From: an uncultured delta proteobacterium | Lineage (GTDB): Bacteria > Desulfobacterota > Desulfobacteria > Desulfobacterales > JAFDCJ01 | NCBI GenBank assembly: GCA_963769935.1 | Contig: CAVYNY010000015.1 | Coordinates: 1-64,000 of the forward strand | Length of the DNA stretch: 64,000 bases | Direction of reading: 5' to 3' | In this document: positions 2,196 through 41,334 of the stretch, in pieces | Layout of the letters: each line of letters opens with the position of its first letter | Numbering within the stretch: the stretch's first letter is position 1 | Notes under the pieces: model-generated | Told to the model about the DNA's origin: nothing | The model's database searches: none | Seen by the model: only the letters and a program-made list of their open reading frames with translations | Made by a program: the position numbers and the translations under genes

Positions 2196-2376
2196 CCGCC
2201 GCACCGATGCGGGCCTGCGCTAAACCCGTGCCGAGGGCGCTCAGCCCTACAGCCAGGCCCATGCCCACGGCGATCAAACCCTTGCTTGAATTGCCGTCCG
2301 CCGCGACGGCCGGCCCACTGAACGCCAACATGCACAGCAACAAGTACACTGAAAGGAACAACACCTTGATTTTCAT
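2196..2376 (-). CDS. atpK: V/A-type ATPase proteolipid subunit K/L (c), 3'-truncated
   Basis: Signal-like N-terminus then GLIAVGMGLAVGLSALGTGLAQARIGAA; the second helix carrying the ion-binding Glu is missing. Confidence 0.85.
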
Positions 2377-2422
2377 TACATTTCCTCCTTAAAAGTCCGA
2401 TATCCGAGTTTCCCGACGCCCT

Positions 2423-4397
2423 TTATGACGAAGAATTGCAGATCAACTGAAAAGGGCGATATGGTCTGCCGCTGACCGTATAGAAATCAAACTTGGTAAA
2501 AAACTCGACCCAAATAAGACGAATAGGCTGCAGAAAGTGGCTCACTGTGAGCAGTACGATGAGCAATGCATGCAGCACAAGGCCCATCAGCAGTCCCGCA
2601 AGCATACCGATCATCATACCGGCGCTCCCCAGCAGGTGGTAGAGCGAAAAGCCCAACTCGGTCGCCAGGTTTGCAAGAATGGCCGAGGCCAGACCTACGG
2701 CGTAAATACGAATGTAGCTCATGATGTGGCCCCCCTGGGTCGGCAACTCCGCCAGCATCAGCGGGGCTCCGGCCAGCAGCAGACCGAACAGAAAGACGGC
2801 CGCACCGGCGACCATCGGAACCACGAGCCACCAACGGAAGTCCTTGGCCATAAATGCGCAGGCGAACAGGATCAGGGCGGCAACGCCGCCGAAGTAGCCG
2901 CAGGCCTCCCAGAAGTGGATCTTCTCAGCGCAGCGGTGTGTCCGCGCAGCCTTGAGATAAAAGCCGTACAGCACCTGATACACACCGAAACCGATGGAAA
3001 GCAGAATTAAGCCGTTGGCGGTGGCAACCGTATTGGTGCGCGGAATCAGCAGCGGGATCCAGCCGGGATGGCGTGTCGTCAAAATGCCGAGCCGCTGGAG
3101 GAGGTCGCCGAAGAACTCCCCGTAAAGCAGACCCCAGAGCATCGTCCATAAAATCATCGGTTTCGCGGCGCGCACCACCTGGGCCAACTGAGCCGGTGCA
3201 AGCCGCATTTTAAAAAAATCCACCGTCAACGCTCGATTGCGCCTGACATATCCTGATAGGTACCAGGAAAGCCCGGCAAATACGGCGCCATACCCGATGT
3301 CTCCCACAATCATACCGAACCACAGCGGAAAGAAGACGGCCCGACCCACGTGGGATCCCAGCTGTCGTAGCGCGGTGTGTTCAGGAAAGAAATCAAGGGC
3401 TCGAAGGGTCTGATCCAGGCGGGGTTCTCCAGCAAAACCGGGACCCGCTCGGCTTCGCCTATTGCCCCGGCCGGTTCAAATACATAGTGTATCAGGGGTT
3501 CGAATCGACCCATTACCTCCAGCACCCGGCGCTCCAGGCGCACCGGGACCCAGCCGAACAGCGCGAAGCCGTACCGGGCCGCAGCCATATCCTTCAGGGC
3601 AAGGAGGCAGGCGGATTCGTCCTGGGCGCGATTCCATAAACTTTTGAGCAGCTGACCCGAATTTATCAGATCGCGGCGCATCTTGTCCTCCGAGGAGGCC
3701 AAGGCTTCCGGAACCCGCCGCGCACGCTCCGCAAGCTGCTCGGCCATTGCTCTCAAGCTCAGGTGGGCATATTTTTCAGGACGGGGAAGTTCTCCAGTCC
3801 CTGGCGGCTCAGGATCCCCTTGGCATCCTCGGCATCGCGCTTGAGCACGAGGATTACAACGGCGATGATGCCGTTTGCGCGTCCATGGGCCATCAGAAAA
3901 CGGTCATCGAGCTCTGATGCCAGCTCTTGCGCCAGCGGTGAAAGATCTGCGGCGCTTTCCACCAGAAAAGGCAGGACCGCAAGCCAGGGGCTCTCGTCAA
4001 GACCCTGCACGATTTCCGCCAGGAGTTCTGCAACCGCCCCGTACTGTTCAATCAACTCCAGTTCTTCCCTAAGACGCTCCTGTTCATTTGCCAGAGCGGC
4101 GACCCGCTGTTCAACGGCTGATGCGGCGGCTTCAGCGCCCTCCATATCGCCTGCGAACGGTTTGGCGGACGGATCCGCCCGCAGTCCGAAAAGCCGCAGG
4201 CCATGGTCGGCCGAGGTTGCCACTGCGCTCCAGCGTTTCAGCCGACTTTCCTCTTCACGGCTGAGTTGGTATGGGTTGATCTCGTCGGTGCGCAGCGGAT
4301 CGATCTGCACGACCCCGACACGCTGGAGATGGTCAAGGATCGCGGGAGCAAGCCGTTTGGGACCGGCGATGATAAGCTTTTCCATCTCTGCGATCAC
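2423..4397 (-). CDS. atpI: V/A-type ATPase subunit I (a), split by two frameshifts (~3780, ~3345)
   Basis: Three consecutive ORFs with MIAEMEKLIIAGPK, GWVP, P-Y-DPT, FGMIVGDIGYG, HIMSYIRIYAVGLA and IRLIWVEFFTKF motifs. Confidence 0.9.
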
Positions 4398-4708
4398 GGC
4401 AGCACCTCTGAGAGAATGAACCTGACGGCGAGCTCGATGTTCGAATCCGCCTCACTGCAAATACGCTGCGCCTCTGCTTCGGCCCGCGCCTGCGCCTCCC
4501 CGGCAAGCTTTTCGCTCTCCTCGCTGATGCGGGCCTTCGATGCCGCCTCTAATTGACGGATTTGATTTTCCGCCTCATCCAGGATACGACGGGCCTTTTC
4601 CTGGGCGCCTGCGAGCCTGCGATCGGAGGATTGACGTGCCTCCTCGAGCTTTTTGACGAGTTCTCGATCAAGTTCAGCAAGATTTTTCACCAGTTCAATT
4701 CCCTGCAT
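4394..4708 (-). CDS. V/A-type ATPase peripheral stalk subunit G/H
   Basis: 104 aa Ala/Glu-rich coiled coil overlapping the atpI start; ends AVRFILSEVLP. Confidence 0.75.
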   Translation of the reverse strand: MQGIELVKNLAELDRELVKKLEEARQSSDRRLAGAQEKARRILDEAENQIRQLEAASKARISEESEKLAGEAQARAEAEAQRICSEADSNIELAVRFILSEVLP

Positions 4709-4725
4709 CGCTATCGCTCCCTCAA

Positions 4726-5628: not shown

Positions 5629-5739
5629 TATTGAATTCCTTTCTTAGTTGGGTGTCGATCTTTCTTTATTCTACTTCGCTTCTTTTGGAAGATTCGGAAG
5701 AAATAAAATTATAATTTAATCTCCTGCCGACAAAAATAT

Positions 5740-5758
5740 ATAGGGTATTTCCTGTATT
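5740..5758. promoter_or_regulatory. Motif 2 site (ATARGG-N6-CWGTATT) upstream of PRC/V-ATPase operon
   Basis: ATAGGGTATTTCCTGTATT; same pattern at 10941 and 14276. Confidence 0.45.
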
Positions 5759-6022
5759 TCTTAGCTGGATATTTTGTATTTTATCTGCTGTCGGCATTCG
5801 GCGGGTGACTGTCCCTGGGCCTAGACAATTCCGGTGCCATTTGGACGGGCCGGGAGGCGGCGATAGCCAATCCCTTTTGGCCTGGAAGAAATACTGTCTT
5901 CTAGACTTAAAGATAAGGGATCCAATGTATAGATTTTGGTTCTTCTTATTGGTACAAAACCGGCGCCGCATAAAATCTTTTTGGGTTCTCCGCCGCAGGC
6001 GGATCCCGGTTAGGATAGTCTC

Positions 6023-9973: not shown

Positions 9974-10819
9974 CTAGCCGCCGGTTCGAAACCCGGGATA
10001 AAGCATCATCCCGCCGTCTACAAACAGGGTCGTCCCGGTTATGTAATCCGACTGGTCCGACGCCAGCCACACGGCCGCTCCGGCGACGTCGGCGGTCGAG
10101 CCGATGCGGTCATACGGAATCAGCTGCAGGAGCTTCTGTTCCGCCTCCGGCGTTTGCCAGGCGCTTTTATTGATGGGGGTCTTGATGGCGCCGGGGGCAA
10201 CTGAATTGACCCGAATATGGTAGGCGGCCAGTTCCTGGGCCATCGTTTGCATCAGCATCATCACCCCTCCCTTGGAGGCTGCATAATTGGCATGCCGCGC
10301 CCAGGGAATGGCCTGATGAACCGACGACATGCAAATAATCTTGCCTGCCGCCAGCGACAATTCGGGCACCACCCCCCGGCGAATAAACTCGCAGGCCGCC
10401 TCCCGGGCACACAGAAATTGCCCCGTGAGGTTGACGGATAATACGACGTTCCACTGCTCCAGGGTCATGTCCTGAAACGCCGCATCCCGCTGCAGCCCGG
10501 CGTTGTTGATCAGGATGTCGATGCTGCCGTATGTCGCAAACATTTTGCGGAACATGGCTTTTACCTGGTCCTCCCGGCTGACATCGGCCTGAATGGCCAT
10601 CGCTTTTCCGCCGGCGCTTTCGATATCTTTTACGACCTGATAGGCGTCCTTTTCATTTGAGACATAATTGACCACAACGGATGCCCCGGCCGCCGCCAGG
10701 CCTTTGGCGACTTGCTCACCGATGCCGCTGTTGGCGCCTGTCACCAGGGCACGCTGCCCGGCCAACATCCCGGCCTTTTCATTTGCTGCCGTATTCAATT
10801 TTTGCTTCTCTCCCTTCAA
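9974..10819 (-). CDS. Glucose 1-dehydrogenase-like SDR
   Basis: TGANSGIG, NNAG, SSVHQAIPW, YAASKGG, PGAIKTPIN. Confidence 0.85.
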   Translation of the reverse strand: MKGEKQKLNTAANEKAGMLAGQRALVTGANSGIGEQVAKGLAAAGASVVVNYVSNEKDAYQVVKDIESAGGKAMAIQADVSREDQVKAMFRKMFATYGSIDILINNAGLQRDAAFQDMTLEQWNVVLSVNLTGQFLCAREAACEFIRRGVVPELSLAAGKIICMSSVHQAIPWARHANYAASKGGVMMLMQTMAQELAAYHIRVNSVAPGAIKTPINKSAWQTPEAEQKLLQLIPYDRIGSTADVAGAAVWLASDQSDYITGTTLFVDGGMMLYPGFRTGG

Positions 10820-10940
10820 AAAATATCCATCTCGGCATCTTATAACTTCTATTCAGGGCCTGCCGGTCGCATCATTGTTCAAAATTTTCATGTTGGAATC
10901 TCTACAATACAGCTATTAGTATCGTTCTTTGAAGACCGCT

Positions 10941-10959
10941 ATAAGGTGGAGACTGTATT
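10941..10959. promoter_or_regulatory. Motif 2 site upstream of glucose dehydrogenase operon
   Basis: ATAAGGTGGAGACTGTATT. Confidence 0.4.
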
Positions 10960-11005
10960 TGGCCGCCCATGATTCCCTACTTTCAGGTCCTCAACATACG
11001 TATAA

Positions 11006-11312: not shown

Positions 11313-12872
11313 TTAGTGTAAGCCTTTATCAGGCGCGATGCTTTTTTTTTGACGGAAAAAAATAGTGAACGGAACCAGTGCTGCCGTAGCCAGGGCCAGC
11401 AGCCAAAATGTATCGTTAAATGCCATCATATTCGCCTGTCGCAGCACCCGCTGATAGATCTCATCGAGGGCGGCATTGGCGCCTGCCATTTGCGGCTGGT
11501 GGATTTGCAGCCATTGTTGCACCTGATTGTAATACTGCTGCAAACTCGAATTATAGGGGGTGACATGTTCCGCCAGAAATGTCTGATGCAGCTGGCTGCG
11601 CCGGACAAGAACAGTTGTGCAGAAGGCCACGCCGACACTGCCCCCCAGGTTCCGCAGCAGATTGAAGATCCCCGATGCATTGCCGGTTTCTTCATTGGGG
11701 ATGCCGGAAAAGGTCGCTGCCGAAAGCGGCACGAAGAAAAGCCCCAGGCCGAAGCCCTGCAGGATCCTGGGCCAGACGACTGCCCGAAAGCTGGCCTCCA
11801 GATTAAAACCCGACATCAGCCATAGCGCGCAGGCGCTGATCGTTAGTCCGATCCCCAGCAGCAGTCGCGGACTGACATTTTTTTTCATCATCAGTCCTGC
11901 CAGCGGCATGATAAAAAAGGCTGCGATGCCTCCGGGACCGAGAACCAGCCCCGCCCAAAACGACGTATATCCCATGAGATTCTGCAGGTAAAGCGGAAGC
12001 AGCACAATACTGCCGAAGAGACAGAAAAAACCGGCAAACATAATCAGGTTGCCGACCGCAAAGCTGCGATCCCGAAAAGCTCTCAGATTCACCACCGGGT
12101 GGGGGATGCGCAATTCGACGATCAGAAAAAGAAGCAGGGCCGTCCCGGAGATAAGGCTGAAAGCGACGATAAAGTTCGAGCTGAACCAATCGTCCCGCTG
12201 ACCCTTATCCAGAACAATTTGCAGGCATCCCAGTCCGACGGCCAAAAAAAACAGACCCCATGTATCGATTTTGATCTGACGCCGGCGGATATAGCCGGGG
12301 TCATGGATGAAAAAAAATACCAGCCCAATCGCCAGAATGCCCGCCGGCAGATTTATATAAAATACCCAGCGCCAGTTCCAGGTATCGGTGAGCCAGCCGC
12401 CGAGCACCGGACCCAGAATCGGTGCCAAAACAACTCCCATACCAAAAAAGGCCATCGCCAGACCCCGCTCTTCCTCAGGAAATGATTCCAGCAGGATGGC
12501 CTGCGAAATGGGCTGCAGCCCGCCCCCGCCGATGCCCTGAAAAATCCTGGCGACAATGAGGACCGCCAGCGAGAGTGCGGATCCGCACAGAACCGAACTG
12601 GCAGTGAAGAGGATCAAAGAAAATATAAGGTAGCGCTTCCTGCCGAAAATACCGGCCAGCCAGCCGCTGATCGAAATGATGATCGCATTTGACACCAGAT
12701 AGGAAGTCAGAATCCACGTCACCTCGTCCAGACCCGCACTGAGGCTGCCCTGGATATGAGGCAGCGAGACGTTGACGACGCTGATGTCCATGATCTCGAT
12801 GAACGTCGGCAGCATCACCGTGACGGCCACAATCCATTTGTTGGCCCGATGGGTTTCAAGGGAGGTCGTCAT
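11313..12872 (-). CDS. emrB: DHA2 (EmrB/QacA) MFS efflux permease
   Basis: MDISVVNVSLPHI, WILTSYL, APILGPVLGGWL, WRWVFYINLP; multi-TM. Confidence 0.9.
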   Translation of the reverse strand: MTTSLETHRANKWIVAVTVMLPTFIEIMDISVVNVSLPHIQGSLSAGLDEVTWILTSYLVSNAIIISISGWLAGIFGRKRYLIFSLILFTASSVLCGSALSLAVLIVARIFQGIGGGGLQPISQAILLESFPEEERGLAMAFFGMGVVLAPILGPVLGGWLTDTWNWRWVFYINLPAGILAIGLVFFFIHDPGYIRRRQIKIDTWGLFFLAVGLGCLQIVLDKGQRDDWFSSNFIVAFSLISGTALLLFLIVELRIPHPVVNLRAFRDRSFAVGNLIMFAGFFCLFGSIVLLPLYLQNLMGYTSFWAGLVLGPGGIAAFFIMPLAGLMMKKNVSPRLLLGIGLTISACALWLMSGFNLEASFRAVVWPRILQGFGLGLFFVPLSAATFSGIPNEETGNASGIFNLLRNLGGSVGVAFCTTVLVRRSQLHQTFLAEHVTPYNSSLQQYYNQVQQWLQIHQPQMAGANAALDEIYQRVLRQANMMAFNDTFWLLALATAALVPFTIFFRQKKSIAPDKGLH

Positions 12873-14149
12873 CTTTGTGATTTGGGCTTGGCGCTTGGGT
12901 CTTCCGCCCGCAGCGTCCGGCCGCTGCGATCCGAAGTGTTGATAGTGACTTCCAATGACAATCCCACCCGCAGCGGGTAACCGGGCGGTGGCGGGACAGC
13001 CAGAGAAATTTTTACGGGAATGCGCTGGACGATCTTGATCCAGTTTCCGGTTGCGTTCTCAGGCGGGAGCAGTGAAAAGGCGGCGCCGGTGCCGGCGCGA
13101 ATCCCGACCACTTTTCCATGATACGTATAATCCGGATAGATGTCCGCGTGAATGACGGCCGGCTGCCCGATACGCACATGGGTCAGGTCGGTTTCCTTAA
13201 AATTGGCTTCCACATAAATTTCCTGCAGAGGGACAACCGCCATCAGGGCCAGGCCCGGCTGAATGCGATCCCCGACCTGGACCGATTTCTGGGCGATAAA
13301 ACCGGTGATGGGAGCCGCTAGCGTGCAGTAAGAAAGATTTAATTGGGCTGCATCCAGCTCGGCCCGGTAAACGTCGCGCTGAGCTTTCAAGGAGGCCAGC
13401 CGGTAATGCTCGATATCGTTTTCATAGAGATCGGCGCGGGCCGATTTCAATTGGGCCTCGGCCTGGTTAATTTCTTGCTCGATGGCTGCCAGTGAATCGT
13501 TTTCCGAAGATATCCGGGCATCGACTGCGTCAAGGGCGGCCTGCGTTTGCTTAAATTTGGTGCGCGCCTCATCCCATCGCTGCGCCGCGACGGCACCGTC
13601 GCGAAAAAGTTTTTCATAACGTTTGAAATCCTTTTGGGCTAATGAGAATTGCGCCGCGGCCGCATCCCGCTGACTGTCCAGTTCCAGCAATTGGTTCTTG
13701 GTTGCCCGGTGTTTGTCATGGGCGGCCTTTAATGCGGCTTCCGCGGTCGCGACCTGGGCTTTGGTTTGAATGTCGGTCTGAGAAACGGAAGCTTCAAGGG
13801 CCTGGACGTCGGCTTCGGATTGAGCCAACTGGGCCTGTGCTTTCTGAACCGAAGTTTTGTAAACCGCCGGATCGATTTCCACAAGGGTCTGACCGGGCCT
13901 CACAAAATAATCGTTGTGAACCGGCACCCGCATAACCGTTCCGGACACGCGGCTGCTGATTTGAGCGCTGTCGGCCATGGCATAGGAATCTTCCGTACTG
14001 ACACGGTTGTACTCGAAAAACCACCAATAGGCGGCGCCTGCCGCCGCCAAAATAACGACCAGAAGCCCGAGTATGATAATTTTTTTTTTGCCAAACCGCT
14101 TTTTAGTTTCGGATTTGGATTCGCCGTCACGATTATTCAATTCAGCCAT
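12869..14149 (-). CDS. emrA: HlyD/EmrA membrane fusion protein
   Basis: N-terminal TM, coiled coil, FSLLPPENATGNWIKIVQRIPV. Confidence 0.9.
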   Translation of the reverse strand: MAELNNRDGESKSETKKRFGKKKIIILGLLVVILAAAGAAYWWFFEYNRVSTEDSYAMADSAQISSRVSGTVMRVPVHNDYFVRPGQTLVEIDPAVYKTSVQKAQAQLAQSEADVQALEASVSQTDIQTKAQVATAEAALKAAHDKHRATKNQLLELDSQRDAAAAQFSLAQKDFKRYEKLFRDGAVAAQRWDEARTKFKQTQAALDAVDARISSENDSLAAIEQEINQAEAQLKSARADLYENDIEHYRLASLKAQRDVYRAELDAAQLNLSYCTLAAPITGFIAQKSVQVGDRIQPGLALMAVVPLQEIYVEANFKETDLTHVRIGQPAVIHADIYPDYTYHGKVVGIRAGTGAAFSLLPPENATGNWIKIVQRIPVKISLAVPPPPGYPLRVGLSLEVTINTSDRSGRTLRAEDPSAKPKSQR

Positions 14150-14275
14150 AGTATTTTACTTTTGTAACGGTTCCCACGGTGCAGGTTTAACCATAGGGAC
14201 TGTTAGCAACGGTTTTCAGTTTATACGGATTTGTCCGAAATTTCCTTCTAATAATAATCCCTCACAAAAATATCT

Positions 14276-14294
14276 ATAAGGTAAAACCAGTATT
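14276..14294. promoter_or_regulatory. Motif 2 site upstream of emrAB
   Basis: ATAAGGTAAAACCAGTATT. Confidence 0.45.
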
Positions 14295-14329
14295 TGAGTC
14301 GCGCGGCCATGGTATATGAAGTGCTTTTC

Positions 14330-14449: not shown

Positions 14450-14668
14450 AATGAGATCGGATTGCTTGAGGTCATTAACAAAATCAATGTCCTGGCCTCA
14501 GACCGCTCGGACACCGCCATCCAACGGGATCTGCGTCTAAGATTTCTGGACAGCCTGGACCCGGAGCTGCAGAATATCACCGTCCACGTGGCGGACGGCC
14601 GGGTCACCCTTTCCGGTCGGGTAGACTCCGAATCCCAGAGAAGAAGAGCCGGTCTGATAAATGATTAA
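14450..14668 (+). pseudogene. BON-domain fragment
   Basis: DRSDTAIQRDL...ITVHVADGRVTLSGRVDSESQRRRA; no convincing in-frame start or signal peptide. Confidence 0.6.
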
Positions 14669-16945: not shown

Positions 16946-17037
16946 TGTAAGACGATCACGGACAAAAAAGTCAGTAGATATCCTACCTGAATATCGGAAG
17001 GATTCCGATACCCCCGCCGCGCAGATCTTCTTATTTT
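16946..17037 (+). promoter_or_regulatory. Motif 1 promoter module (before tandem USP and PRC copy 2)
   Basis: TGTAAGA...TCCTAC...CCGATA(17005)-N21-TATTTT. Confidence 0.7.
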
Positions 17038-17097
17038 CGATTTACAAAGAGGAAAAAGACAAAAATCGAATAAATGCGCAGGAGAGGAGAACCTTGC

Positions 17098-17979: not shown

Positions 17980-18029
17980 AGACGCAAATCGATGACTCCC
18001 AGCAAGAATATACAAGGAGGAATTGAAAA

Positions 18030-18967: not shown

Positions 18968-19003
18968 GTAAAGAATCCTGGCCCGCTGGGCCAGGATTCT
19001 TTA
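18968..19003. terminator. Perfect 16-bp hairpin (repeat copy 3), probable bidirectional terminator
   Basis: taaagaatcctggccc-gct-gggccaggattcttta between convergent genes; includes the kinase stop codon. Confidence 0.7.
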
Positions 19004-19900: not shown

Positions 19901-19979
19901 AGTCTTGCTCCTCCTTGTGGATTTGACGATCCCGCCGGAATTTCCCGGTTGAACGCAGCCGGCGCGGTTTGATACCGAC

Positions 19980-23880: not shown

Positions 23881-24036
23881 GGGTTCGCGAAAAAATTAAT
23901 TCACAATATTAGGCGTTGAGGCGCCCGGACGGCAAGGCGCGAAAACGCAGGAATATCTTGATATTCCGAGTTTTCGCAACGCAGCCGGGCGGGATGCATC
24001 GGCGTATAGAATGTAAAGTTATTTTTGAGTGAGCCC
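23881..24036. mobile_element. 156-bp MITE with terminal inverted repeats and TAA target duplication
   Basis: gggttcgcgaaaaaattaatt ... agttatttttgagtgagccc, flanked by TAA at 23878-23880 and 24037-24039; central palindrome ggaatatc-tt-gatattcc. Confidence 0.75.
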
Positions 24037-26905: not shown

Positions 26906-26997
26906 ATATTAAAACCCAAAATGCGAATCCCGTATCGGCGCCGGTCTTATTTTTGCGTAAGATTCAGGCGCATTTTTGCGTAGGCATTTGTCTCACA
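26906..26997 (-). promoter_or_regulatory. Motif 1 promoter module (before DUF2231)
   Basis: Minus strand TGTGAGA...TCTTAC...CCGATA-N21-TAATAT. Confidence 0.75.
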
Positions 26998-27570: not shown

Positions 27571-27731
27571 AAAATCAACGAAAGGAGGAATGGCTCCGCT
27601 TTAATGTAAATTCGGTCGCGACCGTTTACAACCGGTGGCGCGAAACCGTAGACAGCCCATAAAAACTTCGACCATCCGGTTGTGCAGTAAGAAATTTATT
27701 CATCATGAAAATAAGTCAGGAGGAATTCAAC

Positions 27732-29496: not shown

Positions 29497-29886
29497 ATGC
29501 CGGCCAAAAACATCTACGACCTTTATATAACGGACACAGATAGAAATATTATCCTGGAAGAAAAGTCCGTGGCTGCCGAAACAGCCGAAAAAATTATCCG
29601 GGAACATCCCTGGCGCAGTGAGCTGCAAACCTATGTCCAACTGTGGAAACAGGCCACTAGATTCAGTTTCAGCATCCGTTACATGGAGGCGGTAAAAAAG
29701 TTTGGTGTGGGATTTTCCGATAAGGTGTCGCTGTTTAAATTGCCGCTGCCCTACGTCGGGGCAAGCTATGGCCATTTTGACGATATGGATGATGTCATCG
29801 CGTCGCTGCATCTATTCCTCGAAGGCGAGTTTGAAAAATTGGAACAATTTTTAGCAAGGTATCGCCCCGAACAAAAGGGGGATTAG
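29497..29886 (+). CDS. Hypothetical cytoplasmic protein (129 aa)
   Basis: Strong RBS AGGAGGAG and an isolated ORF; no recognised motif. Confidence 0.7.
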   Translation: MPAKNIYDLYITDTDRNIILEEKSVAAETAEKIIREHPWRSELQTYVQLWKQATRFSFSIRYMEAVKKFGVGFSDKVSLFKLPLPYVGASYGHFDDMDDVIASLHLFLEGEFEKLEQFLARYRPEQKGD

Positions 29887-30087: not shown

Positions 30088-32801
30088 TTACTTTGCATCG
30101 CCTTTTGGCGGTATGATCAGAATCTTTTTCAATTCTTCCATTGCATTTCCAAAATTCTGCCATTTTCCCTGTTCCAGTGCTTTCTGAGCATTTTCAAATT
30201 CTTTCTTGGCACGAATCAACTCATCTGTTTGAACCGGGGCGGCAATGGTGTGCTTTTCAGGCTGGGCGGCACCGAAGACGGCTCGCCAGGGCCTGCTCGA
30301 GGGTCGGCTCCATGACCACCTTATCGCCTTGAATGACAATGATGCGTTTCAGCTGGGGGATGTTTATTCCTTCAGCGATGAGATACACCGGCTCCACGTA
30401 GAGAAACGCGTTGTCAATGGGAATCACAATCAAGTTGCCGCGGATGACCCGCGATCCCTTCTGGTCCCAAAGGGACAATTGTTCGGATATCAGGGTATTC
30501 TGATCGATCATGGCTTCAATTTGAATGGGACCGAATGTCAGCCGCTTTTTGGGGAGTTGATAGACGATCAGGTGTCCGTACTGGGGAAAATCACATTTGG
30601 CCGCCATCCACGCGATCATATTGTCCCGGCCCTGGGGGGTAAAGGGCGTCATCAGAAGATACTGAAGCGCTTGCGTGCCGGGCAGACGCATCAGGATGTA
30701 ATAGGGTTCAAGCCGAATTGCGCTGCCCGCATATTTTTCCTGGGGCAAGTCCCAGAGATCCTCCTGGTTGTAAAATACCTGGGGGGTGGTCATATGATAC
30801 GTTCGGTAAAGATCGGCTTGAATGTCAAACAGATCCTCGGGGTAGCGGAGGTGATTTTTCAGATCCTGAGGCATGTCCGCCAGGTCTTTGAAGGCGCCCG
30901 GGAAGGCCCGCCGGTACAAAGCCAGGATCGGGTCCTGGGGGTCCATCACATAAAGCTGCACCGTCCCGTTATAGACGTCCACCACGGCTTTCACCGAGTT
31001 GCGGATGTAATTCAGCCTTATTGAACGCTTTTTCATACGGTGCTGAATAGGGAAAGCGGTCGGATACCGTGTAGGCATCCTGAATCCAGTAGAGTTTTCC
31101 TTCACTGAGCACAAGGTATGGATCCTGATCAAGTTCTAAAAAGGGGGCGATCCGGGCGACACGCTCGCGCACATTGCGCCAGATCTGAATGCGACTTTCG
31201 GGTCCGGTGTATGAAGTGAGCAAAATGTTGATGTCGGACTGGGTCCAGGCAAACAAAGCCCTTTTCCAGAAGCTGTCAAGGGGAATACCCCCTTTGCCCT
31301 GATAGCTGGTGTAGACGTTTTGATCGCCTTTGGGGTAGTCAAACTCCTTGATCTTGGTCGCTACAATTCGGTAGCCGGGTGTTTTTTCACCGTAGTAGAT
31401 CGCCGGCTGATCCACCGTCAAACCGAATGCGGACTCGGGCGGAATATTGTCGATAATGTAGTCGGGCAGGCCCTCGGGAGTCTTTTTGGAGACAAAGTTC
31501 ATGACCGGGCCATAGCCGTGAGTGAACTGAAGGTATTTATTGACCCAGGTTCGGGCCTTGGGGGGCAGCTGGGCCGCCAGTTCACGGGCCGAGAGCATCA
31601 CCTGGTGATAGCCGTCTTCCAGGTGATAGCGATCCACATCCACCTGGTAAAATTGATAATACAGCCGAATTTCCTGGGTCTGACGATAGGTTTGAAGAAT
31701 GGGCCGCCAGTCCCAGATACGAATATTGTCAATTGTTTCCTGATTCTTGGGGATATCATCCAGGGTGAGGTCTCCCAAAGCCGGATAGGACGTTTCCTTA
31801 ATTTGATCGAGCTGAAAAGCCTTGCGGGTAAATTCGATATTATGCTTAAGATACGGCGTTTCCAGTTCAAGTTCGCTGGGCTGCACCTTGAATTTTTGCA
31901 CCAGGCCGGGCAGGATGATAATAATGATAAAATACAAGGCAAAATAACTGCAGAACGCTGATCGGAAGCATCTTAAAACGCCGGGTGAAAAAACCCACGG
32001 CAATCATAATTGCCAGTACAATGGAAGCCAACAGCATGATCCAGAGCGTGATGCGGCTGACGTTATCGGCGGTATACCCCACGCCGTATACCACGCCGGT
32101 CGTTGAATAGAGAAGTTCGAAACGATCCAGATAATACCCCCACCCCCACACGCCGATCAAAAAGATGAAAAGCAGCGGACAGGTGCCCGATCACCTTCCA
32201 GCTGCCGTGCAGGATTTCGCCCCGGCCGAACCGAAACGCCCCAAAGTAGGAATAGGTGAACGAGCACAATGAGCAGGGTTATGAAGGTCAGGCCCATCAT
32301 GCTGTTTTGGATCAGTTCGTAAAAGGGAAGTCGAAAAAGATAAAAGCCGATGTCCTTGCCGAAGATCGGATCCGGTTGGCCGACGGCTCCTCCCCAGTGA
32401 AAACGCAGATAGGTGTCCCACTCGGGATGAAAGTTGAGCGCGAATATCAGACCGATGACGGCCGAGATTACCAGCCCGCCCGCTTTCAAAAACCCGGGGG
32501 TAATCCCGACGCCCGTTTGGGTGTAAATCCGGGTGGTATCTCCATCCATGGCTCGGGGAAAGGCAGCCGTGGTTGCTGCCGCAAACCGGAAATTAATCCA
32601 GGTATAAAGAAAGACGACCAGGAAGGACACACCCGAAAGAGACCATTTGACGGACAGCAGCCGCCAGAAAATATTCAGGTATCCTACCTGCCGCATCCAG
32701 AGCCATTGCTGCATCAAGCCGGATGCCACCAAGCAAAACACAAGTAAAATGAACGCCGCCGCGATCAAGGATCCTAAAATTACAGCAGGTCTTTTTTGCA
32801 T
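30088..32801 (-). CDS. UPF0182 family membrane protein, split by several frameshifts
   Basis: DPIFGKDIGFYLFRLP, NIRIWD, YYQF..VDVDRY, FTHGYG, NYIRNSVK, RGNLIVIPI...LYVEPVY across consecutive ORFs. Confidence 0.9.
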
Positions 32802-32843: not shown

Positions 32844-32935
32844 ACTATAAATCTCACAGTTGAACGCAGGTATCGGTGCTGGTCTGATAATCGAGTAGGA
32901 TATTGGTGCTTTTCTCTGTAAATGTTTGTCTTACA
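32844..32935 (-). promoter_or_regulatory. Motif 1 promoter module (before UPF0182)
   Basis: Minus strand TGTAAGA...TCCTAC...CCGATA-N21-TATAGT. Confidence 0.75.
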
Positions 32936-33466: not shown

Positions 33467-35446
33467 TTATGAGACGCGCGGCCCAAGTATGGCTAAAATT
33501 TCAGGTTCGTCCATCTTTTCTTTTTCGAGCAATACCTGGGCCATTTTTTCGAGTTTATCGCGTTTGTCCGTCAGCATTTGCTTGGCATCCGCATAGCAGG
33601 CTCGGATAATTTCCTGCGTCTCATCGTCGATCATCTGTCCAAGTTTTTCAGAATGCTGCATCATGCCGGGGCCCTGACCCAGGAACAGATCCTGCTGATG
33701 GTCGACCAGCGATATATTCGGCGCCTGTTGGCTCATACCATAAACCGTGATCATATTACGTGCAATTTTGGCTATTTTTTCCAGGTCATTGGAGGCACCG
33801 GTGGAAACCTCGCCAAAGACAATTTCTTCGGCTGCCCGGCCTCCCAGCAAGCCCTTGATTTTACCGGTCAACTCGCTGCGCGACATCAGAAAACGGTCTT
33901 CCAGCGGGGTTTGCAGCGTGTAGCCCAAAGCGCCGATACCCCGCGGCACAATGGAGACTTTCTGGACCGGATCCGCTCCGGCAGTAAAATGGCCCACGAT
34001 GGCATGCCCGGATTCATGGTAGGCGACCACCTCCCGTTCATGGGGATTGATCAGCTTGTTCTTTTTCTCCAGCCCTGCGATCACCCGCTCGATCGCATCC
34101 TGGAAATGTTGCTGGGAGATTTCGTTCCGGTCTTTACGGGAGGCTAATAAAGCCGCTTCATTGCAGACATTGGCAATTTCAGCCCCTCCAAATCCAGGCG
34201 TTTCAGCAGCCAGTTTGCGCAGGTCGACGTCGTCTTTCAGAGTCAAATTACGGGTATGCACTTCAAATATTCGAACCCGTCCGATAAGATCCGGTCGATC
34301 CACGAGAATCTGGCGGTCAAACCGCCCGGGCCGCAGCAAGGCCGAATCAAGAACCTCGGGCCGGTTGGTGGCCCCCATGATAATGATTCCGATTTGGGGA
34401 TCGAAACCGTCCATTTCGCTGAGCAACTGGTTAAGCGTGTTTTCCCTTTCATCGTTTCTACCCATATAAGGACCCTGGGACCTGCTTTTGCCGACGGCAT
34501 CCAGCTCGTCGATAAAAATAATGCACGGGGCCTTGGCCTTGGCTTCTTTGAAGAGGTCGCGCACCCGGGCGGCGCCGACTCCGACGAACATCTCCACAAA
34601 ATCCGAGCCGCTCAGGTTGAAAAAAGGCACATTGGCTTCCCCGGCCACGGCGCGCGCCAGCAGTGTCTTACCCGTTCCCGGAGGACCTACCAGCATGATG
34701 CCTTTGGGTAGTTTGGCCCCCAGACGCGTGTATTTGCCCGGTTCTTTTAAAAAGGACACGACTTCTTTGACTTCTTCAACCGCCTCATCGACCCCGGCGA
34801 CGTCCTCGAATGTGACTTTGAGCGATGGGTCGACTTCATATATTTTGGCTTTGTTTTTGCCCAGGTTCAAAAAGCCGGCGCCGCCGCCGCCCTTGCCCAT
34901 TTTGCGCATGATCCAACCCCAGACCAGAAAGAGAATGCCGAAAGGAATGATCCAATTGGAGATCAAATGGGCGAAAAAATGCGATTCGATTTTGCCCTGG
35001 TAAGTAACGCCGTGCTGCTGCAGGTCTTCCAGCAGGTTGGGATCGGTGAGGGGGATGACCGTAAATTGGCGTTGAACTTCCTCTTGGCGGGCCTTTTCCG
35101 ATTGCGTCAGGTTTTTTTCAAAATTGAGATACCAGGGGGTTTGTTTTTGCTGCGGGGTGAAGCTGGGCTTAGCGGAGGAGGGAGGGGGCTCGGTTTCGGT
35201 TTTTTTCGCTGCACTGCCGGTCTGCGGGACAGCTTTGGGAGCAGCCTGATCGGATTTCAGTAAACCGTAGATCCTGTCGGATTCCAAAATTACACTTTCG
35301 ACTTTATTCTTTTGAATAAGATCCCGGAATTTGCTGTATGGCAGCTCTTTAACCGCCGGTCCGGAAAAAAACATGGTTTCCAGAAAAAGCATAATCAAAA
35401 ACATAATCAGGTAATAGCCGATGGAAAACTTGGATCGTTGAATCAT
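33467..35446 (-). CDS. ftsH: ATP-dependent zinc metalloprotease FtsH
   Basis: Two TMs, [26 protein letters not shown]. Confidence 0.95.
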
Positions 35447-35530: not shown

Positions 35531-35622
35531 ATATTAAATCCTGAAAGGCGGTTCGGGTATCGGCGCAGGTCCTATTTTTGTGTCGGATTCCGTGGAGATT
35601 TGCCGTAGGCATTTATCTGACA
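35531..35622 (-). promoter_or_regulatory. Motif 1 promoter module (before ftsH)
   Basis: Minus strand TGTCAGA...TCCGAC...CCGATA-N21-TAATAT. Confidence 0.75.
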
Positions 35623-35754: not shown

Positions 35755-35809
35755 TTTTACACTGGTCAACATCGGCGACAGCCAGGCTGTGGCCTTCTCG
35801 CCGAAACAA

Positions 35810-38513: not shown

Positions 38514-40037
38514 ATGTTTAATCGATTGTTTATATCAAACCGTCGCATCCCCGCCCCGTTTAAGAAGATGATAGCCGGTCTGCTGCTGGCTTTTGCAGGT
38601 GCAGGGGTTATTACGGCATGCGCTCAGCAACCGGCGCCGGATAATAAATCTTCCGCTGCAGCTGAATCGTCCCATGCGGTAGTAAGCAGGGTGGATACAA
38701 GCCAGCGGCTGTCGACCGATTTATCCTCTGCCATTGAACAAGTGGCAAATAAAGCGATTCCGGCTGTGGTGCACATTGAAGTGACCGAACACCAGGAAAT
38801 GCCAAATCCTTACTATGCCTATAGGGACAATCCATTTTTCCGCCGCTTTTTCGGACTCCCCAAAAATATGCCGAAAAAGCTTCAAAGGGAAATGGTCGGC
38901 ATCGGCACAGGAGTGATCATCGATGCCGAGGGACATATCCTAACCAACTATCATGTGGTCGGGGGAGCCACTAAAATCGTGGTGACCCTATCAGACGGCA
39001 CCCAATATCCCGCCACGGTGGTAGGGGTGGATCCCGAAACGGATTTAGGCGTTATTAAAATCAACGCCGATAAGCCACTGCCTTTTTTAACCTTTGCAAA
39101 TTCAGACAAAGCCACGGTCGGTCAATGGGTAGTGGCCATCGGCCAATCCAGAGGACTCGACCAGACCGTTACCCAGGGGATTATCAGTGCCAAACATCGA
39201 ACCGGGATCACGGACCCGGGCAGCTACCAGGATTTTCTACAAACCGACGCCGCCATCAACCCGGGCAACAGCGGTGGACCCTTGCTGACGCTTGACGCCC
39301 GGGTCATCGGCATCAACTCAGAAATTGCCTCTCAATCGGGAGGTTTTGAAGGGATCGGATTTGCCATTCCCAGCAATATGGCTACCCATGTCGCCAAAGC
39401 CCTTATTGCCTACGGCAAGGTCGAGCGCGGATGGGTAGGCGTCGGTGCCCAGGATCTTACTCCCAATCTGGCCAAATCTTTCGGTTTAGCGCTTCCAAAG
39501 GGAGCACTGCTGGCGGAGATCGATAAAGATGGACCGGCGGATAAGGCCGGGCTCAAAAAAGGCGATGTCGTCGTCTCTTATCAAGGCCGGCCGGTTGCGG
39601 ATGCCTCCATTTTTCGCAACGATGTGGCAAACTCTCCTATCGGTCAACCGGCACAGGTCGGCATCTGGCGGGACGGTAAAAAACAGGAAATTTCGGTTAC
39701 GGTGGGCAACCTGGAGGATGAACGAAAAGCAGTCGCTGCGGTAGTGAAGGAGCGATTGGGTGTCGTGGTAAGGCCGCTGACCGTTAAAGAGGCTGAAGAT
39801 TACGGGCTGTCGCTGCCGAAAGGCGTAGCTGTTAAATGGGTCGATCCCAAAGGGGCGATCGGTCAGGCCGGATTCGAGGTGGGAGACGTTATTCTGGCCC
39901 TCGACAATCAGCCGGTCCAGGGAGTGGCCAGTTTCGACGAAATGATGATGGCCATTCCTCATCATCAGAAGGCGGTCTTGCTTGCCATCAGCCATAAAAC
40001 CGGGCAGTCCGGCTACGTTCAGATCGAGGTATCGTAG
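38514..40037 (+). CDS. Second DegP/DegQ protease, possible lipoprotein
   Basis: ITAC lipobox-like; TNYHVV, QTDAAINPGNSGGPL, two PDZ domains. Confidence 0.9.
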   Translation: MFNRLFISNRRIPAPFKKMIAGLLLAFAGAGVITACAQQPAPDNKSSAAAESSHAVVSRVDTSQRLSTDLSSAIEQVANKAIPAVVHIEVTEHQEMPNPYYAYRDNPFFRRFFGLPKNMPKKLQREMVGIGTGVIIDAEGHILTNYHVVGGATKIVVTLSDGTQYPATVVGVDPETDLGVIKINADKPLPFLTFANSDKATVGQWVVAIGQSRGLDQTVTQGIISAKHRTGITDPGSYQDFLQTDAAINPGNSGGPLLTLDARVIGINSEIASQSGGFEGIGFAIPSNMATHVAKALIAYGKVERGWVGVGAQDLTPNLAKSFGLALPKGALLAEIDKDGPADKAGLKKGDVVVSYQGRPVADASIFRNDVANSPIGQPAQVGIWRDGKKQEISVTVGNLEDERKAVAAVVKERLGVVVRPLTVKEAEDYGLSLPKGVAVKWVDPKGAIGQAGFEVGDVILALDNQPVQGVASFDEMMMAIPHHQKAVLLAISHKTGQSGYVQIEVS

Positions 40038-40131
40038 CTGCGGTGTTAACGACCGCAGCAATGCATGGAATGTCGAAGATCCGCCTTCGGAGGGGTGAAA
40101 AGATGGAATATTGGAGAATTGGAGAAGATCA

Positions 40132-40968
40132 ATGAGTATTTTTAGCGCAGGGCATTATCTGGGATTGGTTGCTTTAGGGATCGGCGTCGGTTGCTATGGA
40201 ACTTTGATCGGCGCAGGCGGCGGCTTCGTGTTGATGCCGGTCCTTCTGCTGCTGTATCCGCAGCAAGACGCCGATCTGCTGACCAGCATCTCGCTGGCGG
40301 TGGTTTTTTTCAATGCCCTCTCGGGGTCGGAAGCCTATGCGCTGCTGAAACGCATTGACTATCGTTCCGGCTTGATGTTTTCGGCTGCGACCATACCGGG
40401 GGCCGTGCTGGGGGCCCTGAACACGGCATATGTGCCCCGTCGTGTGTTTGATTTAATTTTCAGCGTCTTGTTATTGGCGGCCGCCGTCTTTTTAGGTTGG
40501 CGACCGCGCAAGGCCGGAACCGGTGGAAAATCAATGAACGCTGCTCATCACAAAATGGTGCGGCGGGTGGTCGATGTGCATGGTATCGTGTACGAGTATG
40601 ATTTCAACTGGCTGCTTGGCATGGGGATCAGCCTCATTGTCGGATATGTTTCAAGTTTTTTGGGGATCGGTGGAGGCATTATCCATGTTCCGGCGCTCAG
40701 CTTTCTCTTGAATTTTCCCGTACACATCGCCACCGCCACCTCCCACTTTATTCTGGCCATCATGGCATTGACCGGCACTGTGGTCCACATTTTGACGGGA
40801 ACCTTCGCCCACGGCGTCCATCGAACGATAGCCCTGGCCATTGGGGTGGTCCTGGGCGCTCAAATAGGTGCACGCCTGTCCGAGAGGTTGCAGGGAAGCT
40901 GGATCATCCGGAGTTTGGCAGTTGCTCTGGGACTCGTGGGACTGCGGATTTTAATCGTGGCCTTGTAG
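40132..40968 (+). CDS. TauE/SafE (TSUP) family membrane transporter
   Basis: GTLIGAGGG and GIGGGIIHVP repeats; hydrophobic. Confidence 0.85.
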   Translation: MSIFSAGHYLGLVALGIGVGCYGTLIGAGGGFVLMPVLLLLYPQQDADLLTSISLAVVFFNALSGSEAYALLKRIDYRSGLMFSAATIPGAVLGALNTAYVPRRVFDLIFSVLLLAAAVFLGWRPRKAGTGGKSMNAAHHKMVRRVVDVHGIVYEYDFNWLLGMGISLIVGYVSSFLGIGGGIIHVPALSFLLNFPVHIATATSHFILAIMALTGTVVHILTGTFAHGVHRTIALAIGVVLGAQIGARLSERLQGSWIIRSLAVALGLVGLRILIVAL

Positions 40969-40991
40969 GCCTGGGTCGAGGTATTCGCGCT

Positions 40992-41334
40992 ATGGAAAAG
41001 AAGTATGACAAAAATGTAGATGTAGACAATCTTATTGTGGAAGAGATTCTGGTTTTACTCCAGGAAAAAAGGACCGCCCTCAGAATGGTGCGAATTGGAA
41101 TCGGGGCGATTATCGCCCAGATAACCATCCTCGGTTTTCTGATCGCCACCTCCAAATACTATGAGTGGATGGAGGTTATGCATCTGTGGATTCCGTTTGT
41201 CATTGCTCAACCTGGTCGTGTTGGGGGTTGCCGGCTACTTTATTTTTGGATCGCTCATTTACATACATCGTCTGGATCGCCAGATTCAGAGATACAAAAA
41301 AAGTCATGGCGTAATCTCTAATTTTATGGACTGA
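40992..41334 (+). CDS. Small membrane protein (DUF202-like), frameshift near 41205
   Basis: LLQEKRTALRMVRIG then TM helices; second frame runs to TGA 41334. Confidence 0.55.

What the first reader, a model, noticed from the sequence alone, without database searches (positions are those of the whole stretch)
2196..41334. ~39 kb stress/pH-homeostasis island combining two ATP-driven proton pumps, envelope proteases and sugar-to-NADPH enzymes
Seen: V/A-ATPase subunits, P3A H+-ATPase, an NhaP remnant, two DegP, FtsH, two USPs, DedA-PAP2, BON, two PRC-barrel proteins, EmrAB, UPF0182, GH63-like, GH15, glucose dehydrogenase and zwf, clustered and sharing two promoter motifs. Inference: a co-regulated accessory survival module (acid, osmotic, oxygen or dormancy stress), analogous in concept to the tLST heat-resistance locus (FtsH, DegP) or the DosR regulon (USPs), but with different content.
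Basis: partly seen in the sequence, partly recalled or inferred. Interest (0 to 1): 0.7.

Follow-up and report, generated by a model that had tools for sequence, protein, structure and literature searches.

The report
Two-switch stress gene cluster in anaerobes
A 39-kb block of stress genes in an uncultured sulfate-reducer relative, including a plant-type proton pump, carries two repeated promoter signatures that likely let two unstudied sensor-regulator pairs switch it on, probably to survive air or similar stress; the second pump is cut short in this assembly and would more likely make ATP than expel acid.

Summary
The gene list is mostly right, and two promoter motif families are real. M1 is a 66-bp array of three dimer sites, 23 bp apart, ahead of a -10 box. 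It heads 8 promoters here, out of 13 hits genome-wide. It recurs in 25 genomes of at least five phyla, and 11 of 35 such loci lie beside one NarL-type regulator whose copy in this genome is on contig C35. M2 heads four other promoters and belongs to a much larger regulon (trehalose and glycogen genes, complex I, terminal oxidases). Reshuffled versions of the cluster occur in 2 of 22 congeners (pieces in 3 more), and several genes show signs of lateral exchange. Corrections: only the P3A pump is complete here. The V/A-ATPase stops inside subunit K at 2196, probably an assembly artefact; a complete Thermus-type operon lies on C35. It was not found in the other cluster carriers. The cluster fails the membership tests for tLST, DosR and lxa, and has no mobility genes. 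Best reading: an accessory general-stress cluster run by two regulators, likely linked to oxygen exposure, not a dedicated acid island. Co-expression and the trigger are untested.

The parts
2197..2376 (-). V/A-ATPase subunit K, first 60 codons only; joined at 2196 to unrelated low-GC DNA (probable assembly artefact)
   Evidence: the complete C35 copy matches Thermus-type subunit K, PDB 5gar, E 1e-28; a 699-nt contig of run X2 fits 2196-2747 and runs on 147 nt unlike the window
2423..4397 (-). V/A-ATPase subunit I in three frames; the indels at 3079-3080, 3341 and 3793 are absent from short-read contigs and from the C35 copy
   Evidence: Pfam PF01496, PF18670, PF18274
4394..4708 (-). V/A-ATPase subunit G
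   Evidence: PF16999
4726..5628 (-). PRC-barrel protein 1, first gene of the V/A operon; C-terminal part resembles the MamS/MamX domain (lead only)
   Evidence: PF05239; Atlas feature score 0.90
5737..5760 (-). M2 site upstream of PRC-V/A (not an independent hit: the motif was first seen here and its C35 duplicate was in the training set)
   Evidence: 21.0 bits; similar element upstream of G in L070, L072, L073
6023..6613 (+). cytochrome b561
   Evidence: PF01292
6767..9481 (-). GH63/MGH1-like glycoside hydrolase
   Evidence: PF22422, PF03200
9616..9855 (-). DUF4404 protein (indel at 9823 absent from 3 runs' contigs)
9974..10819 (-). glucose 1-dehydrogenase-like SDR
10938..10961 (-). M2 site upstream of GDH-DUF4404-GH63
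   Evidence: 22.6 bits, model trained without contig C15
11190..11312 (-). NhaP 5' remnant, ending in a dispersed genomic repeat
   Evidence: an X1 contig spans 11099-12561 with no difference
11313..14149 (-). emrA-emrB-like efflux pair
14273..14296 (-). M2 site upstream of emrAB
   Evidence: 19.2 bits
14330..14395 (+). M1 array (weakest copy), upstream of the BON remnant and DedA-PAP2-LssY
   Evidence: 40.8 bits
14381..14668 (+). single BON domain with no start codon found; G008 has 6-BON proteins behind M1
14661..16779 (+). DedA(VTT)-PAP2-LssY membrane protein (one frame change near 14690)
16946..17011 (+). M1 array upstream of USP1-PRC2; the main conserved block of this promoter in G008 and G022
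   Evidence: 49.1 bits; footprint alignment
17074..18935 (+). USP1 (two Usp domains) and PRC-barrel protein 2
19001..19984 (-). HisKA_3 histidine kinase with no sensor domain found; H, N, G1 and G2 boxes present
20006..20072 (-). M1 array upstream of the kinase
   Evidence: 53.2 bits
20284..20307 (+). M2 site upstream of GH15
   Evidence: 16.8 bits; partly conserved in G008 and G022
20435..22309 (+). GH15 trehalase/glucoamylase-like hydrolase
   Evidence: PF00723, PF19291; below the TreH1 cut-off
22388..23705 (-). APC amino-acid permease (indel at 22884 absent from X1 and X2 contigs)
24036..25592 (-). zwf, glucose-6-phosphate dehydrogenase
   Evidence: TIGR00871
26336..26804 (-). DUF2231 membrane protein (two frames)
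26932..26997 (-). M1 array upstream of DUF2231
   Evidence: 47.7 bits
27061..27126 (+). M1 array (strongest) upstream of the receiver and DegP1; TATAGT 21 nt downstream
   Evidence: 75.2 bits
27181..27570 (+). stand-alone receiver domain with phospho-acceptor Asp
27705..29186 (+). DegP 1, catalytic triad motifs present
29497..29886 (+). 129-aa protein of no known family; 71% identical homologue in the G008 cluster
30088..32801 (-). UPF0182 membrane protein in pieces; five indels are absent from two or more runs' contigs each
32870..32935 (-). M1 array upstream of UPF0182
   Evidence: 70.7 bits
33007..33450 (+). USP2
33467..35446 (-). accessory FtsH (Walker A/B and HExxH present)
35557..35622 (-). 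M1 array upstream of ftsH
   Evidence: 46.9 bits
35810..35875 (+). M1 array upstream of P3A-DegP2-TauE
   Evidence: 70.3 bits
35954..38467 (+). P3A plasma-membrane-type H+-ATPase, intact
38514..40968 (+). DegP 2 and TauE/SafE permease
40992..42163 (.). small membrane protein (+, no Pfam hit) and a 266-aa ORF (-) whose 66% identical homologue lies in the G008 cluster; probable right edge

Best explanation
This is an accessory cluster of stress genes whose promoters carry two distinct repeated signatures, and it is likely switched on by two NarL-type two-component systems to help a sulfate-reducer relative survive stress, most likely exposure to air in fluctuating soils and sediments. Shown: M1 is three [RTMRGAC-N5-YYKAY] units with a 23-bp period, the last one ending 21 nt before a TATAGT-like hexamer. 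It heads BON/DedA, USP1-PRC2, the kinase, DUF2231, receiver-DegP1, UPF0182, ftsH and P3A-DegP2-TauE. M2 heads PRC-V/A-ATPase, GDH-GH63, emrAB and GH15. Inferred: the dCache-HAMP-HisKA_3 kinase and 210-aa NarL-type regulator at C35:67936-70354 bind M1 as phased dimers and activate weak sigma-70 promoters in the BvgA manner, with the stand-alone receiver and the sensor-less kinase as feedback parts. The M1 arm would hold cytoplasmic pH (P3A) and clear damaged envelope proteins (FtsH, DegP). A second regulator, likely the NarL-type protein at C22:35.5 kb, would drive M2. That arm would release glucose from trehalose or glycogen (GH15, GH63), make NAD(P)H (GDH; zwf has no site of either motif), and elsewhere in the genome feed complex I and haem-copper oxidases. 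The Thermus-type V/A enzyme would then act as a reversible ATP synthase. Rough odds: M1 is this regulator's site 0.8; general stress role 0.65; oxygen as the main trigger 0.35.
For: M1: a matrix built only from the 35 loci finds 13 sites in G000, 8 of them in this 22-kb stretch, and 0 in 4 Mb of shuffled genome. Parts that were not in the query are conserved at fixed distances: the upstream box 35 nt away in 31 of 35 loci, and a -10-like hexamer at +21 (exact in 19 of 35). 11 of 35 loci hold a full-length relative (at least 50% identity) of the C35 regulator within 3 kb, and 15 of 35 hold a homologue (at least 45%) of a window gene; ten aligned regulators share the LSxKTxSTYR helix. A search with the upstream half alone found G375, in another family, with kinase-regulator (69%)-M1, GH15, M1-receiver-DegP. 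Close regulator orthologues occur in G000, G004 and G008, all M1 carriers, and in none of the 17 genus genomes without M1. M2: 163 sites above 15 bits against 5 in 4 Mb of block-shuffled DNA; 27 lie on C22:28-107 kb among TPS/TPP, TreT, GlgE, glycogen, desulfoferrodoxin and PRC genes, beside HisKA_3 and NarL genes. M2 precedes nuoA and coxB on C35 and cyoA in G013. Strict M2 counts are 16, 11 and 14 in the three full cluster carriers and 0-2 in the other 20 genomes. In G013 the cluster is contiguous with complex I, a bo3-type oxidase and pentose-phosphate genes. G000 has dsrA.
Against: No binding, expression or phenotype data. The M1 regulator is not in the window, and it was not found in 3 of 6 M1-carrying congeners (G005, G013, G022; 81-90% complete). 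24 of 35 M1 loci have no regulator within 3 kb and 20 of 35 have no window-type gene; outside Desulfobacterota the targets differ. Some of the 35 loci are the same DNA as congeneric loci already counted, and the M1 query was derived from this window, so the matrix is not fully independent. G008 carries the cluster but showed no high-scoring A-type oxidase (best 254 bits), which weakens the oxygen link. The M2 regulator is one of at least three similar candidates. zwf, the APC permease, USP2 and cytochrome b561 have no strong site of either motif. The direction in which the V/A enzyme works is not shown; that the Thermus enzyme is an ATP synthase rests on PDB titles and recall.
Confidence: 0.55

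Rival explanations
1. A dedicated acid/pH-homeostasis island in which P3A and the V/A-ATPase both expel protons, fuelled by sugar oxidation.
For: Intact P3A with the AHA2-type TIRI and ND membrane motifs. Relatives carry NhaP, CLC, MgtC, MgtE, Nramp and a YfdX protein in or near the cluster, and Kup lies beside the regulator. In L072 and L073 a V/A operon follows GDH-GH63 as here. E. coli EvgAS, an acid-activated NarL-type system, controls emrKY (PMC8174306, passages).
Against: The V/A operon was found with its subunit A query in 1 of 23 genus genomes at high identity, and not in G008 or G013. It carries M2, not the M1 motif of P3A. NhaP is a remnant here. The regulator scores 123.6 against an EvgA cut-off of 251. 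No decarboxylase or HdeD-type gene in the Pfam scans.
Confidence: 0.2
2. A dormancy or low-energy programme like DosR or lxa, switched on when electron acceptors run out rather than when air arrives.
For: USPs, BON, an ATP-dependent Zn protease and a P-type ATPase overlap with lxa content (PMC3721108, passages). HisKA_3 plus NarL-type architecture as in DosS/DosR (DevR among PDB hits). Trehalose and glycogen genes under M2.
Against: No DosR box at 3 mismatches; FNR/Anr-type box at chance level, 4 against 3.0 expected; the kinase input is dCache-HAMP with no GAF domain found; M2 precedes oxygen-consuming oxidases.
Confidence: 0.15
3. An insertion hot spot where unrelated accessory genes pile up; the motifs travel with the genes and the block has no joint function.
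For: Gene order and content differ in every carrier; remnants (NhaP, BON) and dispersed repeats lie inside; four-fold-site identities differ gene by gene, 32-90%.
Against: M1 sits upstream and on the sense strand of eight different, non-homologous genes with fixed spacing; the same gene set re-clusters in G008, G013, G022, G375 and L043/L052.
Confidence: 0.1

Closest known systems
lxa locus of Burkholderia cenocepacia (PMC3721108, passages read)
   Same: Co-regulated accessory cluster with USPs, phospholipid-binding (BON-type) proteins, an ATP-dependent Zn protease, a P-type ATPase and a shared promoter motif that also marks genes elsewhere.
   Different: The lxa motif is TGA-N6-TCA (Anr/Fnr-like) and helps an aerobe survive anoxia. 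Here the motifs are NarL-type arrays, the host has dsrA, and the cargo adds P3A, two DegP, UPF0182, GH15/GH63/GDH/zwf and a V/A operon.
BvgA-activated promoters Pfha/Pptx of Bordetella (PMC7250471, passages read)
   Same: Several regulator dimers in tandem on one helix face, the last abutting the -35 region of a weak promoter (three dimers at Pfha).
   Different: The period here is 23 bp, not 22; the half-sites differ; the partner is a plain dCache-HAMP-HisKA_3 kinase; the targets are stress genes. Binding here is predicted only.
GacS/GacA (UvrY) and its box TGTAAG-N6-CTTACA (PMC9911603, passages read)
   Same: Best NCBIfam hit of the C35 regulator (199.7 bits); the upstream M1 unit has GacA-like half-sites.
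   Different: Below the 280 cut-off; the palindrome is 19 bp (N7), not 18; two further units follow; the kinase is not a hybrid; the targets are protein genes.
tLST / locus of heat resistance (PMC8290217, passages read)
   Same: Accessory ftsH and degP on a laterally moving stress cluster.
   Different: No clpG/clpK, sHsp20, yfdX, hdeD, trx, kefB or cls in the window; the tLST is highly conserved in order, this cluster is reshuffled.
DosR/DevR regulon of Mycobacterium tuberculosis (content as cited in PMC3721108; box recalled)
   Same: HisKA_3 plus NarL-type control of USP-rich stress genes, clustered and dispersed.
   Different: No DosR box; no GAF sensor domain found; different cargo.
Thermus-type V/A-ATPase (PDB 5gar family) and AHA2/Pma1 P3A pumps (PDB 5ksd)
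   Same: Subunit K of the C35 copy matches at E 1e-28; the P3A matches AHA2 at E 6.5e-197 over residues 12-801.
   Different: The window's V/A copy is cut inside K; both pumps are accessory genes here, under different motifs.

Membership tests
P3A H+-ATPase | TIGR01647 above cut-off; DKTGT, TGES and the M5 Arg / M6 Asp motifs | tested here: met
   1025.1 against 615.5; motifs present and aligned to AHA2
V/A-type ATPase (complete pump) | G, I, K, E, C, F, A, B, D all present in the locus | tested here: not met
   window has G, I and 60 codons of K only; A, B and D found once, on C35; E, C, F on C35 assigned by position, not scanned
V/A-type ATPase (complete pump) | the truncation is real in the chromosome | tested here: inconclusive
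   an X2 contig runs on 147 nt past 2196 with other letters (not seen); the indels are absent from short-read contigs; L069 continues I-K-E at 94-95%; no long reads examined
tLST | clpG/clpK and sHsp20 core; yfdX, hdeD, trx, kefB | tested here: not met
   none among the window ORFs scanned with Pfam (64, 13)
tLST | accessory ftsH and degP | tested here: met
DosR regulon | DosR box in promoters (pattern recalled) | tested here: not met
   0 matches at 3 mismatches
DosR regulon | HisKA_3 kinase with GAF sensor plus NarL-type regulator | tested here: not met
   HisKA_3 and NarL yes; input is dCache_1-HAMP
DosR regulon | induction by hypoxia or NO | not testable with these tools
   no stranded or condition-labelled reads
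lxa locus | Anr/Fnr-type motif | tested here: not met
   FNR-type pattern: 4 matches against 2.99 expected, 34 of 100 shuffles as high; the looser TGA-N6-TCA was not tested
lxa locus | USP, BON-type, Zn protease and P-type ATPase content | tested here: met
   (family-level likeness, orthology not tested)
GacS/GacA (UvrY) | regulator above the NF007018 cut-off | tested here: not met
   199.7 against 280
GacS/GacA (UvrY) | 18-bp TGTAAG-N6-CTTACA box and a hybrid kinase | tested here: not met
   19-bp box; kinase is dCache-HAMP-HisKA_3-HATPase with no receiver
BvgA/EvgA-type activators | phased tandem dimer sites ending at -35 | tested here: met
   consensus of 35 loci gives a 23-bp period and a hexamer at +21; geometry only
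BvgA/EvgA-type activators | EvgA orthology | tested here: not met
   123.6 against 251
BvgA/EvgA-type activators | regulator binds the array | not testable with these tools
   needs EMSA or footprinting
genomic island (mobile) | integrase or transposase, tRNA anchor, flanking direct repeats, GC shift | tested here: not met
   the left edge is unreliable
genomic island (mobile) | patchy distribution and signs of lateral exchange | tested here: met
   3 of 23 genus genomes; M1 in 4 of 301 order genomes; carriers not one clade on gyrB, 4 changes; four-fold identity 70-90% for several genes against 52% for gyrB

The most novel reading that the evidence does not exclude
The window joins C35 through the V/A operon into one block of over 100 kb that gives a sulfate-reducer relative an inducible air mode. 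Stored trehalose and glycogen are burned through the pentose-phosphate route, complex I and bo3/caa3 oxidases; a laterally gained Thermus-type V/A enzyme makes the ATP; a plant-type P3A pump and accessory FtsH/DegP protect the cell; and two undescribed NarL-type systems, one shared across five or more phyla of anaerobes, form the switch.
Probability: 0.2. Interest if true: 0.72.

Novelty: new variant of a known kind. Interest (0 to 1): 0.48.

Why it matters
It supplies a precise, testable regulator-site pair for a stress regulon in uncultured anaerobes, a group in which the one systematic study I read obtained no motif for several such regulators (PMC3333781, passages). It gives a candidate control for a bacterial plant-type proton pump. 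It also suggests how some sulfate-reducer relatives cope with oxygen swings in soils and wetlands. The kind of system (a clustered stress regulon under a NarL-type pair) is known; the motifs, the regulator family and the cargo were not found in my searches. The case also shows that apparent pseudogenes and a truncated operon in this assembly are probably sequence errors.

Tried and rejected
Reading the V/A genes as a decayed duplicate: my first reading, dropped after short-read contigs showed the missing bases. Window 1-2001 has no cover in X1, X2 or X4 and almost none in X7; a hole proves nothing, so it is not counted as evidence. RNA-library contigs of runs X4 and X7 (one study) cover many cluster genes, including a 5,009-nt contig across P3A-DegP2-TauE at about 90% identity; these are relatives' contigs and show neither transcription nor co-expression. 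Rfam and tRNA scans: nothing. M1 in viral contigs: 0. P3A on plasmids: 12 records, all under 60% identity, neighbourhoods not read. A TAGGGACT (DosR-like) word upstream of USP1 is not conserved in G008 or G022. A sigma-28-type reading of CCGATAC (consensus recalled) was set aside because the spacing does not fit and a -10-like hexamer follows at a fixed distance. The short AGTAAAGAATCC repeats and the elements at 11.0, 23.9, 26.2, 29.9 and 35.7 kb are genome-wide dispersed repeats, not cluster motifs. No M1 above 18 bits in 80 V/A-subunit-I loci. In one search the zwf G000-G013 pair was mis-framed (n=1) and dropped; gyrB was missing for 5 of 23 genomes, including G013. The Atlas gave no family for the 129-aa ORF. 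Paper searches that found no description of the motifs or cluster: 'ccgatac + response regulator + binding site + luxr' (7 listings, titles and abstract starts only); 'general stress response, PRC-barrel, trehalose, Deltaproteobacteria, NarL', 4 of 5 terms (2 listings); 'proton-efflux P-type ATPase, bacteria, acid' (11 listings); two EvgA searches gave no usable binding-site text. Most subscription papers, RegPrecise and all supplements were not seen, so a prior description cannot be excluded. No structure prediction or complex job was run.

Full report
Setting. The window is G000:C15:1-64000 of an 8.0-Mb, 41-contig genome (96.7% complete, 5.4% contaminated). It has dsrA, and near-identical loci are labelled Desulfobacterales or Deltaproteobacteria, so it is a probable sulfate-reducer relative.

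Gene content. The P3A pump is intact, passes TIGR01647 and aligns to AHA2 over residues 12-801. FtsH and both DegP proteins keep their catalytic motifs. The block also holds cytochrome b561, DUF4404, a HisKA_3 kinase with no sensor domain found, an APC permease, DUF2231, a stand-alone receiver and TauE.

The second pump. The window has only PRC-G-I and 60 codons of K, then unrelated DNA of 0.469 GC. Window 2196-5820 is 96% identical to C35:9722-13390, where the operon continues to A, B and D. Short-read contigs carry the bases missing at 3079-3080 (4 of 4 runs), 3341 (3 of 4) and 3793 (4 of 4), the same gaps that separate the window from C35. One X2 contig fits 2196-2747 and runs on 147 letters unlike the window; I did not see those letters. 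Over 3428-4868 an X1 contig has 4 differences from the window where C35 has 25, so the window allele is real. Near the join, contigs differ from the window about as often as C35 does (5 and 5; 10 and 12), which suggests a poor consensus at the contig end. Indels in DUF4404, the APC permease and UPF0182 are also absent from two or more runs each. I infer assembly errors and a chimeric join; lesions private to this strain are not excluded. In metagenome contigs a V/A operon follows GDH-GH63 (L073) or GH63 (L072, complete to D), so the link to cluster genes is real. However, a close subunit A was found in only 1 of 23 genus genomes, G000 itself. Subunit K is closest to the Thermus-type enzyme.

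Distribution. Close P3A and FtsH orthologues occur in G000, G008 and G013 of 23 genus genomes. Their neighbourhoods hold the same genes in a different order; G004, G005 and G022 have pieces on short contigs. G013 adds complex I, a bo3-type oxidase, FBPase, pgl, tal, rpiB, tkt, gnd, intact NhaP and CLC. On a gyrB tree of 18 genomes the five M1 carriers need 4 changes, no fewer than shuffled labels (mean 4.5). Four-fold-site identity between G000 and G008 is 52% for gyrB but 70-71% for FtsH, 75% for the N-terminal part of P3A, 90% for part of UPF0182 and 71% for the regulator, while DegP1 (52%) and zwf (32%) are not raised. This points to gene-by-gene lateral exchange, against one core gene only. 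No integrase, tRNA or flanking repeat was found.

Motif M1. The repeat finder showed a shared upstream element of about 70 bp. An exact 31-base pattern matched 35 stretches in 25 genomes of the genome collection, labelled Desulfobacterota, Nitrospirota, Chloroflexota (mostly Dehalococcoidia), Aminicenantes, Spirochaetaceae and one archaeal bin that may be mis-binned. Two features outside the query are conserved: a TGTARGAC-AAA-NN-YYKACA box 35 nt upstream (31 of 35) and a TATAGT-like hexamer at +21. The consensus resolves into three units with a 23-bp period, the middle one weak on its left half. This resembles the phased dimers of BvgA, 22 bp apart with the last at -35 (PMC7250471, passages). 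The half-sites resemble the GacA box with one extra base (PMC9911603, passages). A matrix from those 35 loci finds 13 sites in G000, 8 in window 14.3-35.9 kb, and none in 4 Mb shuffled. A strict pattern hits 6 of 23 genus genomes and 4 of 301 order genomes; the upstream half hits 4 of 401 phylum genomes (counts include G000).

The M1 regulator. One G000 site lies directly behind a dCache-HAMP-HisKA_3 kinase and a 210-aa NarL-type regulator on C35. Relatives of that regulator lie within 3 kb of M1 in 11 of 35 loci, often in the order kinase-regulator-M1-receiver-DegP-P3A or FtsH (L043, L049, L052). G375, found with the upstream half alone, shows the same arrangement plus GH15. The regulator is below the GacA, EvgA, NarL and UhpA cut-offs. 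It was not found in G005, G013 or G022.

Motif M2. A second element (AAATACA-G-G-A-T-Y-N-ACCC-Y-AT) was seen upstream of V/A operons. Trained without contig C15, it finds four window sites above 15 bits and 163 in the genome, against 5 in 4 Mb of block-shuffled DNA. 27 sites lie on C22:28-107 kb with trehalose, glycogen, desulfoferrodoxin, PRC and DksA genes and a NarL-type regulator; others precede nuoA and coxB on C35 and cyoA in G013. M2 is expanded in G000, G008 and G013 only. G008 showed no high-scoring A-type oxidase.

Mechanism. Shown: the genes, the two motif families, their positions, and the link of M1 to one regulator family. Inferred: binding and activation; an M1 arm for cytoplasmic pH and envelope protein quality; an M2 arm for mobilising stored sugar, making reducing power and respiring; and the V/A enzyme as a reversible synthase. 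The trigger is unknown. Oxygen exposure is my first choice because M2 precedes oxidases and complex I in two genomes of a dsrA-bearing lineage; acid and dormancy remain rivals.

Comparison. It works like lxa or DosR (a clustered stress regulon with a shared motif; PMC3721108, passages) but fails their motif tests. It shares only ftsH and degP with the tLST (PMC8290217, passages). In Desulfovibrio, DAP-chip gave no clear targets for DVU2577, DVU2675 or DVUA0137 (PMC3333781, passages). My searches found no description of M1, M2 or this cluster; their coverage is limited and no supplements were read. Earlier scan notes describe similar NarL-type architectures in other genomes but none holds these motif words; they are leads, not support.

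Verdict. A real accessory stress cluster under two predicted regulons; a new variant of a known kind; interest 0.48. The two-pump pH headline is not supported as stated.

Noticed in passing
window 446-2204: REC-GGDEF-EAL gene in several frames, GC 0.469, no second copy in the genome by blastn; probably a foreign contig end joined at 2196.
   Followed up: partly
G000:C35:1-5072: Matches C34 at 89-97% identity, so the start of C35 also looks like strain-mixed or duplicated sequence.
   Followed up: no
G000:C35:28-71 kb (L002, L149, L021): Cytochrome b, CtaG, caa3-type coxAB, a CLC-like gene, HAD, nuo operon, DUF1269, a second haem-copper oxidase, two Kup transporters, CAAX and M50 proteases and the M1 regulator pair; may be the continuation of the window cluster.
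   Followed up: partly
G000:C22:28-107 kb (L152-L154 scanned): Dense M2 cluster: TPS/TPP, TreT, GlgE, glycogen enzymes, desulfoferrodoxin, a third FtsH, DksA, CBS, PRC, DUF2383, with REC-kinases, a PAS-HisKA_3 kinase and a NarL-type regulator.
   Followed up: partly
L018 and L026 (G008:C39:1-40000): Cluster with a second P3A (about 50%), LigD domains, phospholipase D-VTT, PfpI, ABC1 kinase and PRC proteins, and 18 M2-like sites above 12 bits.
   Followed up: partly
L078-L081, L089: Thermus-type V/A operons in other metagenomes lie close to zwf, and in most of these also tkt (L079-L081, L089) and gnd (L079, L089); no M1 there.
   Followed up: partly
window 4726-5628 and 18030-18935: Paralogous PRC-barrel proteins (62% identical) with a C-terminal part resembling the MamS/MamX domain; three copies in the G008 cluster.
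   Followed up: partly
window 10998-11170, 23872-24040, 26085-26340, 29884-30035, 35647-35772, 46497-46747: Dispersed intergenic repeats with many copies in the genome; in run X7 a contig joins across the 23.9-kb element, which suggests it is a recent insertion.
   Followed up: no
window 50281-51070 and 53712-56802: An HpcH-type gene and an AcrB gene are each split over two frames, outside the cluster; probably more assembly errors.
   Followed up: no
L003-L004 (G000:C13:240-263 kb): Smaller related stretch: USP, DegP, RND pump, PRC and UPF0182 pieces, a P-type ATPase C-terminal fragment, USP.
   Followed up: no
L050: M1 lies upstream of a YfdX-domain protein and Nramp in another Deltaproteobacterium; YfdX is a tLST component.
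   Followed up: no
G000:C30:74427-74912 and C13:450502: M1 sites outside the cluster; the genes behind them were not identified.
   Followed up: no
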